A stretch of DNA of 64,000 nt from Lingula anatina (taxonomy: Eukaryota; Animalia; Brachiopoda), in the NCBI GenBank assembly GCA_051362555.1, contig CM120640.1:15190001-15254000 (forward strand), given 5' to 3'. The notes under the pieces were generated by a model. It was not told the origin of the DNA and searched no databases. It was given only the letters and a program-made list of their open reading frames with translations. Numbering within the stretch: the first letter of the stretch is position 1; each line of letters opens with the position of its first letter. The translations under genes were made by a program, and so were the position numbers. Positions 31,701-34,700 of this stretch are shown in pieces.

Positions 31701-34700
31701 TACTAAGATAATAAGTGAAATTCAGTGCAAAACAAAAACATGAAGGCTAAGTTGTTACAGGAAGCAACTAGTAATTTTTTTACTATTCAAGGAAATCAGA
31801 CAAAAAAATAAACTTATATAAAGTAAACAGACCCAGAAAGCGGACAAACAATAGAAAGAAAGAGGTCACATGCCATTTATATTAAGATTTACCAATATTC
31901 AGTAATTTAAACTAGGGAAAAAGTCAACAGTGCATTATCGATGCTAGCACAGTCTCACTGATGTAACACAAGGCCAATTGCCCACAACAAAAACCTTGCA
32001 ACACAAGAGTACATTGTTTAAAATATCATCTGGGTAAAAAAATAAATAAATAAACAAAACAACACTTGAAGACTTTGTAGGGCATGCAAAAAATGAAGGT
32101 AACATCATGCTTTCAGGAAATGTCTTTAAAAATCTGTACATCCAAAACCATCCAGAGGTTACATCCAGGTAACATGCAAAAATACCAACAACAAAAACAA
32201 TAAAATACAACTTTTCATTTTGTACTTATCCCTGACACATCACATGCCTTCTTATCTCTCTCAGAGCCATCAGTAATCATCACTCCCTTCGACTGCATGT
32301 GACTGTAGAGGAGTCGCTGCAGCGCAGACATTTCACACTTAATCACATACTCAACCTGTGTGAGGGCCAGATTAGACAGAAGAGAGAAGACAAAAAAATA
32401 AAGTTAGTATCAAAAAATCTCCTGCTGGCAAACTACACAACTGCTGCAAAGACGGCAGTTAGTGGGTGTGAGTTCTGGTCACACCATGCAGAGTGTAATC
32501 AATACCTTCTTGTCGTGTTCAGACCCGTCTGTGATCATCACTCCCTTGGCCTGCATGTGCCGGTAGATGAACCGCTGTAGAGCGGACATGTCGCATTTTA
32601 CCACATACTCAACCTATGAGGATATATCAAGTTTACATATCAAAACATAAAATGAGCTTATTCCTTCTTCTCCCCTGAAATAAAACTGCTGCTCCCCACA
32701 GGATGGCTGACATCATCATAAAGAAATGCTAGAAACAAAAGAATGGCACATTGTATTTACAAAGTCACAACTATAGTACATAATATAATTTTTTAATTAT
32801 GCATAAAATTATTTTTAAAGATATTTGACAAATGATTGAATGTGGAATTATATTCATAACATATTGTTTTGCTGTTTACCCATAAACTAGTACAATGTTA
32901 TTATGGCAATATATTATTGACCTTCTCAGGTAGTTGAGATTCCACTTCCTTCTTCAGACGTCTCAAAAGGAAAGGACGTAGAACTTTATGCAGACGGCGA
33001 ATGATCAAAAGCGTCTCTTCACTGTTCAGCTCAACCTATGAAATGAAAATATTTATGAAAATACATCCTTCATTCTAGATTCATAAAAGGTTTAGTTTTT
33101 TTAGTCAGCATTGTCACATATAATGTACAAAAAGTCCATGAAAATCCACAAATTTAAAGCATATTCTGTCTTCTCACAGAACAGGCTATTATAACACCAA
33201 TCTCATTCCCTAATAAAGGTGTCGGTTAGACAATGAAATATTAAAGTGGTAATAACATTGTTAAGATGCAATGTAAAGAAGCTATAATTGTGATTTAGAG
33301 GGCATAACACCAGTTATGAAATTCTCAGTTAGACTGCCCATAGATAAGTTCTAACATTCCATTTAAAATTGCAATATACTGTGCCAATTGACCCCTGGCC
33401 ATTCTCACCTTCTCTCCAGTGTTTGCAAATGGTGCATTGAACCACTGCTCAAAGGTGCCACATGATTTGAAAATACTGGGCAACAGAAAGTTGAGGAGAG
33501 CCCAGAGCTCTGGCAACTTATTCTGAAATAAATAATATAAAATAATAAATGCAATTACAAGACTTTCTGTTGATTACAGCTGGCATGTATCCATTCATCA
33601 ATGAACAATATATCCATTGTAATACTATACCTCAGTTTTCACCCTTTTTTAAATTTTCCTTTTATATACATGACTGCAAAGTGCACATACATATTACACA
33701 CTGTTCATATCAAAATGCCTATTCAAAGCAAACTATTCCAGAGTCTTAAAATCTATAGCAAAAGCATTACCTCCATAGGCATAGCACTGTGAAGAGTAAA
33801 CAGCATTTCTGCCCTGCATTAAATGAAATAATTCACACACACCCAAGTGACTCTTATCTATCATTCTTACCTGTAAAGGAGTTCCAGTGAGAAGCACTCT
33901 GAAGGGGGCAGTGTAGTGGGTGTTCAACACCTGGGTCAACTTGCAGTGGTGGTTCTTCATTCTATGGCCTTCATCAATGATCATGTACTTCCAGCGAATC
34001 TATAATTAATTGTCAATTTAAGGCAAACAGTTTCAAAGTCAATTTGGCTTCTTGCAATAACAATCAGCCTATACACCTGAGAAACTCATTTTTTAAATTT
34101 AAATTTCAGCATCAGTACAAATAAACTTAGATAGATAGATAGATAGATATTCAAAATAAAAACGTTTAACAAAAAATTTCACATAATTCAAAAGGAACCA
34201 TTGATAATATTACCCTGGCTGAAATATACTTATAACACCCACCTTGGCCAGAACTGCTTTATCCTTGATAACATATTCATATGTGGTTAGTAGCACATTA
34301 AACTTGACAGCTCTCATCTGCATCAGGATGTTTCTGCGGACATTGGGACCACCTTTGTAAGGAATCTTGACCACTGAAGGAGCCCACTTGTCAAACTCCA
34401 GCATCCAATTGGACAAGGTCCTAAAAATGTATCATTTTGTAGTGGTGGTTCTTCATTCTATGAGTAAAATCTACTTATATTAAAGAATTCTATTTAACAC
34501 ATGAATTAAAAGTGATGAAACTAAAGGAGTAACATAAAACTTAAGTAACAAACTTATCTAACAATTCAAACATTTAGAAAAAAATATATGTATATACGTT
34601 GCAGTTCATCTGTCATTTAAACTTCCAAGTTTATATACTTGGTGTAAAAGTTTACTTACGAGAGGGGCACAATGATCAGATAGGGTCCATTGACTTTCTT

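What the first reader, a model, noticed from the sequence alone, without database searches (positions are those of the whole stretch)
32248..32613. Tandem-duplicated, apparently mutually exclusive exons inside the Brahma/SMARCA4 ATPase
Seen: two 108-nt, phase-0 exons 150 nt apart encode the same 36-aa segment between the two RecA lobes: [36 protein letters not shown] (32506-32613, GT donor) and [36 protein letters not shown] (32248-32355, AG|GCATGT donor). They differ at 7 of 36 residues but at many synonymous positions, and their flanking introns share no similarity. Inference: an old duplication with both copies under purifying selection. Including both would duplicate part of the folded ATPase, so mutually exclusive splicing is likely. 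A single invertebrate Brahma gene could then make two motor variants, loosely analogous to the vertebrate BRM/BRG1 split. I know of no description of this for Brahma, but cannot check the literature.
Basis: partly seen in the sequence, partly recalled or inferred. Interest (0 to 1): 0.85.

Follow-up and report, generated by a model that had tools for sequence, protein, structure and literature searches.

The report
Swappable exon in brachiopod Brahma motor
The Brahma chromatin-remodelling gene of the lamp shell Lingula carries two old copies of one motor exon and splices in either one at ratios that differ between samples; three other invertebrates carry the same pair, so it is likely an old, regulated splice switch whose effect on the motor is untested.

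Summary
Confirmed. The window is the Lingula anatina Brahma gene. Exons A (32613-32506) and B (32355-32248) encode the same 36 residues (human BRG1 992-1027), with pS 0.70 and pN 0.10. Raw RNA reads from 4 runs join the upstream exon to A (7, 10, 12, 7 reads) or B (19, 4, 0, 22; p=5e-6). B's GC donor is used, and no A-to-B joint was listed. RefSeq already predicts both isoforms (X1, X2). A transcript of one uses B alone. One shared origin is not proven: exon trees cannot separate one from two or three duplications. In Lingula a GCATG cluster around B suggests Rbfox-type control; frame-shift decay and U12 mismatch are excluded, steric clash is unlikely. The substitutions are conservative, so a functional difference is open. 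My paper searches found no report of it. The scan earlier noted a different duplicated exon in Owenia brahma, not this one.

The parts
25726..40219 (-). Coding span of the Brahma (SMARCA2/4-type) gene of Lingula anatina; 32 coding exons in isoform X1
   Evidence: All 1579 of 1579 residues of XP_013396616.1 map exactly to the window; Pfam domains listed
32922..33035 (-). Constitutive upstream exon (ends ...ESQLPEK), donor AAG|GTCAAT; carries the SuppH helix by homology to BRG1 R966/R973
   Evidence: SuppH position from PMC9839376 passages
32506..32613 (-). Exon A, 108 nt, GT donor, less pyrimidine-rich acceptor (62%); in RefSeq X1 and X3
32485..32490 (-). TGCATG at +16 of the 150-nt middle intron (Rbfox-type motif, after A and before B)
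   Evidence: function inferred
32403..32409 (-). TACTAAC branch-point consensus about 50 nt before exon B, inside an AG-free zone and followed by an 80% pyrimidine tract
   Evidence: use as a branch point is inferred
32248..32355 (-). Exon B, 108 nt, GC donor; in RefSeq X2
31676..32247 (-). Cluster of six GCATG pentamers in the intron after B, the first being bases +1 to +5 of B's GC donor
   Evidence: 6 seen, 0.45 expected, 0 of 3000 shuffles; 4 in 8450 nt of 29 other introns
31376..31510 (-). Constitutive downstream exon (starts GRGGARAL...)

Best explanation
Exons A and B are an old tandem duplicate that Lingula splices one at a time into Brahma mRNA, giving two equally long ATPases, and the choice is likely set cell by cell by a splicing factor of the Rbfox type. 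Shown: both exons are joined to the same upstream and downstream exons, the ratio differs between samples, and both copies are under purifying selection. Inferred: B is the default because it has the stronger acceptor (branch-point consensus plus pyrimidine tract) and so outcompetes A. Where an Rbfox-type protein binds the GCAUG elements (one on B's weak GC donor, one between the exons, five further downstream), B is silenced and A is joined to the downstream exon, as for exon 7a of C. elegans unc-32. The opposite direction (downstream GCAUG helping B) is possible. Predicted: the exon encodes a beta strand, a helix and a loop directly after the linker that follows the SuppH helix, so double inclusion or skipping would damage the fold and the two forms would differ only by fine tuning. 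Confidence by step: either-or splicing about 0.92; regulated by cell type or stage about 0.75; Rbfox-type involvement about 0.5; one origin shared with the three other animals about 0.55.
For: (runs X1, X4, X7, X3): upstream-to-B joints 19, 4, 0, 22; upstream-to-A 7, 10, 12, 7; together 81 of the 88 reads at 32928. A-to-downstream 3 (X4) and 3 (X3). B-to-downstream appears as loose ends matching the downstream exon's start, 9 (X1) and 8 (X3). No A-to-B joint listed; B depth 0 in X7. Ratio differs: chi-square p 5e-6 on reads, 3e-4 on distinct starts; X1 and X3 (same study) agree. RefSeq X1 and X2 differ only by these 7 residues. L007, L008 and L012 carry the pair with pS 0.53-0.85 and pN 0.10-0.14. 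Transcript L004 matches L008's exons (98-100% identity over the three aligned blocks) and uses B alone. ACTAAY lies 41-53 nt before B in 4 of 4 pairs, against 0 of 31 other Lingula and 0 of 14 other L007 acceptors. B's tract is more pyrimidine-rich than A's in 4 of 4. GCATG enrichment. Rbfox binds GCAUG (PMC11874969 passages); UGCAUG after the second exon selects the first in unc-32 (PMC3585155 passages).
Against: Depth is low (26-62 reads laid per run) and joints under 3 reads per run are not listed, so minor double inclusion is not excluded. Tissues of the runs are unknown. X7 differs from the window at 5 positions of the 114-nt upstream exon, so its lack of B may be genetic, or B reads may have fallen under the 93% cut-off. 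The GCATG cluster is not shared by the other animals (0 in 692, 1 in 355, 3 in 1765 nt) and the motif was picked by eye before testing. L012's A acceptor also has an ACTAAT at -28. The model has pLDDT 71-78 over the strand and start of the helix and under 50 over the loop. No binding or enzyme data.
Confidence: 0.7

Rival explanations
1. Choice is made by competing RNA pairings (a docking site downstream of B pairing with a selector after A or after B), and GCATG is enriched because it is nearly self-complementary.
For: L007 and L012 share two intronic blocks. The downstream block pairs with an arm just after B in both (-19.0 and -18.1 kcal/mol, with one A-U to U-A swap readable) and more weakly with the middle-intron block (-13.5, -10.2). 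L007 also has a -31.5 duplex bracketing B, reached by 0 of 60 shuffles. The arrangement is described for 14-3-3, Mhc and MRP1 (PMC6071210 Discussion).
Against: In Lingula the best middle-to-downstream duplex is ordinary (-20.9; 18 of 60 shuffles as good), as in L008 (56 of 60) and L012 (18 of 60). In L012, 174 of 803 other windows pair better than the conserved block. Lingula's matches to the two blocks are short (9 nt, null 5%; 7 nt, null 18%).
Confidence: 0.2
2. The pair arose separately in Lingula and in the lineage of L007/L008/L012; the shared Asp/Glu order and strong B acceptor are convergent. This concerns history and is compatible with the best explanation's mechanism.
For: Lingula A and B share Met26-Ile27 and sit together in the free amino-acid tree. 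The two-duplication tree is 2.5 log units below the free tree, the one-duplication tree 10.4 (AU p 0.54 and 0.09). A's donor is GTAGC in the three others but GTATT in Lingula. No second version in 27 other protein clusters including molluscs and Lineus; 19 loci with both flanking exons hold one copy. Convergent exon duplication is common (PMC9741552 passages), and an earlier scan note reports another duplicated brahma exon in Owenia.
Against: Same exon out of 32, same Asp-then-Glu order in 4 of 4, same branch point placement in 4 of 4. One duplication is not rejected on amino acids, nucleotides or codon positions 1+2 (AU p 0.09, 0.31, 0.12). Gene conversion could explain the shared Lingula residues.
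Confidence: 0.45
3. The two forms are functionally interchangeable; both copies are kept only because each is used in some cells and so each must encode a working segment.
For: For 6 of 7 changed positions both residues are common among 72 distinct homologous segments (for example D 35, E 37). Most lineages examined show one version only.
Against: The Asp/Glu difference keeps its order in four animals, and both copies were kept until synonymous sites were near saturation.
Confidence: 0.4
4. Artefact: an assembly duplication, two alleles, or a dead copy.
For: None found.
Against: pS 0.70 between copies; reads of single runs join one upstream exon to both; three other animals show the same layout.
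Confidence: 0.01

Closest known systems
Tandem duplicated exon substitution events (mutually exclusive homologous exons), catalogued for human, fly and worm (PMC9741552, passages; PMC5740500, passages)
   Same: Equal-length homologous exons, conservative substitutions, old origin, either-or use.
   Different: The catalogued cases are enriched in ion channels and membrane proteins; SMARCA, brahma and chromatin do not occur in the main text of PMC9741552, and SMARCA4/SMARCA2 were not found in the supplementary files held for either paper (only one small file held for PMC9741552).
C. elegans unc-32 exons 7a/7b (PMC3585155, passages)
   Same: Two-exon cluster with UGCAUG in the intron after the second exon.
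   Different: There the RBFOX and UNC-75 roles are shown; here only motif enrichment is shown, and one motif overlaps a GC donor.
RefSeq isoforms XP_013396616.1 (X1) and XP_013396617.1 (X2) of Lingula anatina
   Same: Exactly the A and B forms.
   Different: Predicted database records; no description of the event turned up in my searches.
Vertebrate BRM (SMARCA2) and BRG1 (SMARCA4)
   Same: Two versions of the same motor segment in one organism. They differ at positions 14, 15 and 25 of this segment; in L007, L008 and L012 copy A has the BRM residue and copy B the BRG1 residue at 2, 2 and 1 of these, never the reverse.
   Different: Whole-gene paralogues, not one exon. Lingula's pair does not show the match, and with about three independent Ile/Val or Lys/Arg changes it is not beyond chance.
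Human SMARCA4 in an annotation list of three-exon mutually exclusive clusters (PMC6071210, passage); SMARCA1 and SMARCA2 splice deletions (PMC1949830, passages)
   Same: Alternative splicing in SNF2-family genes.
   Different: The list gives no coordinates, so I cannot say which exons; human BRG1 isoforms in the PDB show one version of this segment. The SMARCA1/2 events are deletions, not homologous swaps.

Membership tests
Brahma / SMARCA2-4 ATPase | QLQ, HSA, BRK, SNF2 ATPase, helicase C, SnAC and bromodomain in one protein | tested here: met
   Pfam accessions on P0122 (names recalled), exact map to the window, best PDB hits BRG1/BRM
Tandem-duplicated mutually exclusive exons | Homologous, same length and phase, adjacent | tested here: met
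Tandem-duplicated mutually exclusive exons | Each exon is joined to the shared flanking exons | tested here: met
   RefSeq X1/X2; L004 for B in a second species
Tandem-duplicated mutually exclusive exons | Not included together and not both skipped | tested here: met
   No A-to-B joint listed in 4 of 4 runs; 81 of 88 reads at the upstream exon's end go to A or B. Events under 3 reads per run are invisible.
Tandem-duplicated mutually exclusive exons | Both copies under purifying selection | tested here: met
Tandem-duplicated mutually exclusive exons | Tissue- or stage-specific use | tested here: inconclusive
   Ratio differs between samples but tissues are not given, and one run is genetically distant
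Steric-clash exclusive exons | Donor to branch point under 50 nt (threshold from PMC5740500) | tested here: not met
   Likely branch point is about 102 nt from A's donor; a second ACTAAC at +43 is within range but six AG lie between it and B. Middle introns are 323-829 nt in the other animals.
U2/U12 incompatible exons | A U12-type donor or acceptor | tested here: not met
   Donors GTATTG and GCATGT do not fit the U12 consensus (recalled)
Decay-enforced exclusive exons | Double inclusion shifts the frame | tested here: not met
   108 nt each, phase 0, no stop
Docking-selector exclusive exons | Competing intronic pairings beyond chance and conserved | tested here: inconclusive
   Not beyond chance in Lingula, L008, L012; beyond chance in L007; conserved hairpin in L007 and L012
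Rbfox-regulated exons | (U)GCAUG enriched near the exon | tested here: met
   (Lingula only)
Rbfox-regulated exons | Binding and splicing response to Rbfox | not testable with these tools
   needs a minigene or cross-linking

The most novel reading that the evidence does not exclude
A single duplication before brachiopods and annelid-like worms parted gave spiralian Brahma a cell-type splice switch inside its motor, kept for over 500 million years in some lineages and resolved to one copy in molluscs, nemerteans and flatworms, and the two forms differ in remodelling activity, doing by splicing what vertebrates do with BRM and BRG1.
Probability: 0.2. Interest if true: 0.8.

Novelty: new member of a known kind. 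Interest (0 to 1): 0.5.

Why it matters
Swapped homologous exons are known mainly from channels, membrane proteins and muscle proteins. This one sits in the catalytic core of the SWI/SNF motor, just after the SuppH regulatory helix, in animals with apparently one Brahma gene. It offers a natural pair of variants for asking whether this strand-helix segment tunes remodelling. With the different duplicated exon noted earlier in Owenia, it hints that spiralian Brahma has repeatedly diversified its motor by splicing. If the forms behave alike, it remains a clean case of an old exon pair with a GC donor and lineage-specific control signals.

Tried and rejected
No whole genome is held for the window, so a second Brahma gene or an Rbfox gene in Lingula could not be checked. 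The run search listed no indexed RNA holder; the raw-read runs were laid instead, 4 of the 9 listed. The lay covered only 22 bases of the downstream exon, so downstream joints are undercounted. L007, L008 and L012 could not be extended. No named annelid, phoronid, bryozoan or chiton protein came back from three homologue searches, so these loci cannot be named. The FastTree run put L004 among gastropods (0.70) and the IQ-TREE run next to an unnamed clade (95/89), with L007 unresolved. The IQ-TREE run used 26 of the 43 rows; near-duplicates, flatworm, insect and short rows were dropped. Exon trees: only four separate duplications was rejected, and only on amino acids (AU p 0.034). Inverted repeats in the Lingula introns are AT-rich chance-level pairs. 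Steric, U12 and decay mechanisms were rejected (see membership test). The AlphaFold model (pLDDT 67, made on L004) gave secondary structure only, no contacts. Look-ups of earlier findings by sequence and place gave nothing. Paper searches for a prior description: (listings and abstract starts); none showed this event. The library lacks most subscription papers and bioRxiv supplements, and MetazExp (PMC8728262, listing only) may hold the event as a database row.

Full report
The observation. Exon A (32613-32506) and exon B (32355-32248) are 108 nt, phase 0 and 150 nt apart. They share 84 of 108 bases, with 12 synonymous-only codons and 7 amino-acid changes. Synonymous sites are near saturation (pS 0.70) and replacement sites are not (pN 0.099; Fisher p 6e-9). 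The segment aligns end to end with human BRG1 992-1027, and vertebrate-like loci L005, L009 and L010 hold it as one exon with the same ends.

The gene. Exon A is 100% identical to RefSeq XP_013396616.1 of the brachiopod Lingula anatina, and all 1579 residues map exactly to 32 exons of the window. The same cluster holds XP_013396617.1, which differs only by the seven A/B residues, so RefSeq already predicts both forms.

Splicing. Four of nine listed RNA runs were laid on 31489-33100. Upstream-to-B joints numbered 19, 4, 0 and 22 and upstream-to-A joints 7, 10, 12 and 7 (X1, X4, X7, X3). Together they are 81 of the 88 reads at position 32928. A-to-downstream joints were listed in X4 and X3 (3 each). 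B-to-downstream appears as 9 and 8 loose ends whose letters match the start of the downstream exon, so the GC donor is used as proposed. No A-to-B joint was listed, and X7 has no depth on B. The ratio differs between runs (p 5e-6 on reads; 3e-4 on distinct starts), while X1 and X3 from one study agree. Limits: joints under three reads per run are hidden; the tool drops human-like reads, which may bias A against B within a run; tissues are unknown; X7 carries five differences in the upstream exon and may be another population.

Other animals. A metagenome scan returned 80 loci. Three (L007, L008, L012) hold two tandem copies with intact splice sites, each with Asp at position 8 of the first and Glu in the second, as in Lingula, and each with pS far above pN. 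Nineteen loci with both flanking exons and both introns hold one copy, many of them near-redundant; the rest are intronless on a side or cut short. L004 is a spliced transcript that matches L008 (98-100% over three blocks) and goes upstream exon, B, downstream exon. With the duplicated segment removed, trees place L004 and L007 among spiralians; IQ-TREE sets L004 beside an unnamed clade (95/89) outside molluscs and nemerteans, whereas FastTree set it weakly among gastropods. I suspect annelids, but no named annelid was in hand. In 27 other protein clusters (amphioxus, octopods, bivalves, gastropods, Lineus, flatworms, chelicerates, vertebrates; at most 15 members listed each) no species showed two versions. 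Absence from annotation is not absence from the genome.

One origin or several. For one: the same exon, the same Asp/Glu order, ACTAAY 41-53 nt before B in 4 of 4 against 0 of 45 other acceptors tested (L012's A acceptor, outside that set, has one at -28), and the more pyrimidine-rich tract on B in 4 of 4. For several: Lingula's copies share Met26-Ile27, A's donor is GTAGC in the other three but GTATT here, and many relatives would have had to lose a copy. Topology tests on 36 residues reject only four separate duplications, on amino acids alone (AU p 0.034); one, two and three all survive. L007 and L012 share intronic blocks and so one origin. I put a single origin for all four at about 0.55.

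How exclusivity is enforced. Frame-shift decay cannot act, the donors are not U12-type (consensus recalled), and the likely branch point is about 102 nt from A's donor, beyond the 50-nt steric limit given in PMC5740500 (passages). In Lingula the striking feature is GCATG: six copies in the 737-nt intron after B (0.45 expected, 0 of 3000 shuffles), one more between the exons, against four in 8450 nt of 29 other introns. One copy is B's donor itself; without it the excess holds (p 9e-5). GCAUG is the Rbfox element, usually enhancing the exon upstream of it (PMC11874969, passages), but in C. elegans unc-32 such an element after the second exon selects the first (PMC3585155, passages). I commit to B as default through its strong acceptor, silenced where an Rbfox-type protein covers its weak donor. 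This is inference. The cluster is absent from the other three animals. L007 and L012 instead keep a predicted hairpin after B, and L007 has a strong duplex bracketing B (0 of 60 shuffles), while Lingula's best duplex is ordinary (18 of 60). The control may differ by lineage.

The protein. In a model of L004's ATPase (pLDDT 67) the exon is a strand, a helix and a low-confidence loop, following the two helices and linker of the upstream exon. Published domain schemes put SuppH around BRG1 R966-R973 and group protrusion 2 with lobe 2 (PMC9839376 and PMC7853424, passages), so I infer that the exon opens lobe 2 and protrusion 2, beside but not within the regulatory hub. Six of the seven changes use residues common in other animals; His33 occurs in 1 of 72 distinct segments. 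A functional difference is therefore plausible but small and unshown.

What is known. This is a tandem duplicated exon substitution, a known kind (PMC9741552, passages). Searches and the supplement searches showed no description for Brahma; PMC6071210 names human SMARCA4 in a list of annotated clusters without coordinates. That exon is single in Lingula and L007.

Verdict. Real, expressed, either-or, old and shared with other spiralians; a new member of a known kind, with mechanism and consequence inferred. Interest 0.5.

Noticed in passing
window 34462-34432 (minus strand, intron): A 31-nt echo (28 of 31 identical, first 22 exact) of coding sequence at 33966-33936 in the motif II exon, about 500 nt away; perhaps a remnant of a small duplication.
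   Followed up: partly
window 27852-27703 (minus strand): RefSeq X1 and X3 differ by 16 residues (1428-1443) at the end of this bromodomain exon, consistent with an alternative donor; human SMARCA2 also has a bromodomain splice variant (PMC1949830).
   Followed up: no
window 30195-30068: Two tandem 65-nt copies, 88% identical, in an intron.
   Followed up: no
L007 3918-3990 and L012 2276-2392: A predicted hairpin after exon B with conserved arms, different loop lengths and one compensatory change; a second conserved block of about 27 nt lies in the middle intron of both.
   Followed up: partly
L012 2241-2262: A stretch after exon B that can pair either with exon A's donor region or with the bases just after B's donor; not beyond chance in the shuffle test.
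   Followed up: partly
run X7 on window 32922-33035: Five base differences in 114 coding bases from the window (four in every read covering them) although labelled the same species; may reflect a distinct population or cryptic species.
   Followed up: no
L001 581-688: An unnamed animal whose segment resembles Lingula A (Asp8, Phe15, His33) and has lost the upstream intron; no second copy in the 890 nt held downstream.
   Followed up: no
window about 51000-63900: Several similar blocks whose minus-strand frames read like the antisense of a repeated plus-strand gene with Thr-rich stretches, apparently a tandem gene family (seen only in the frame listing).
   Followed up: no
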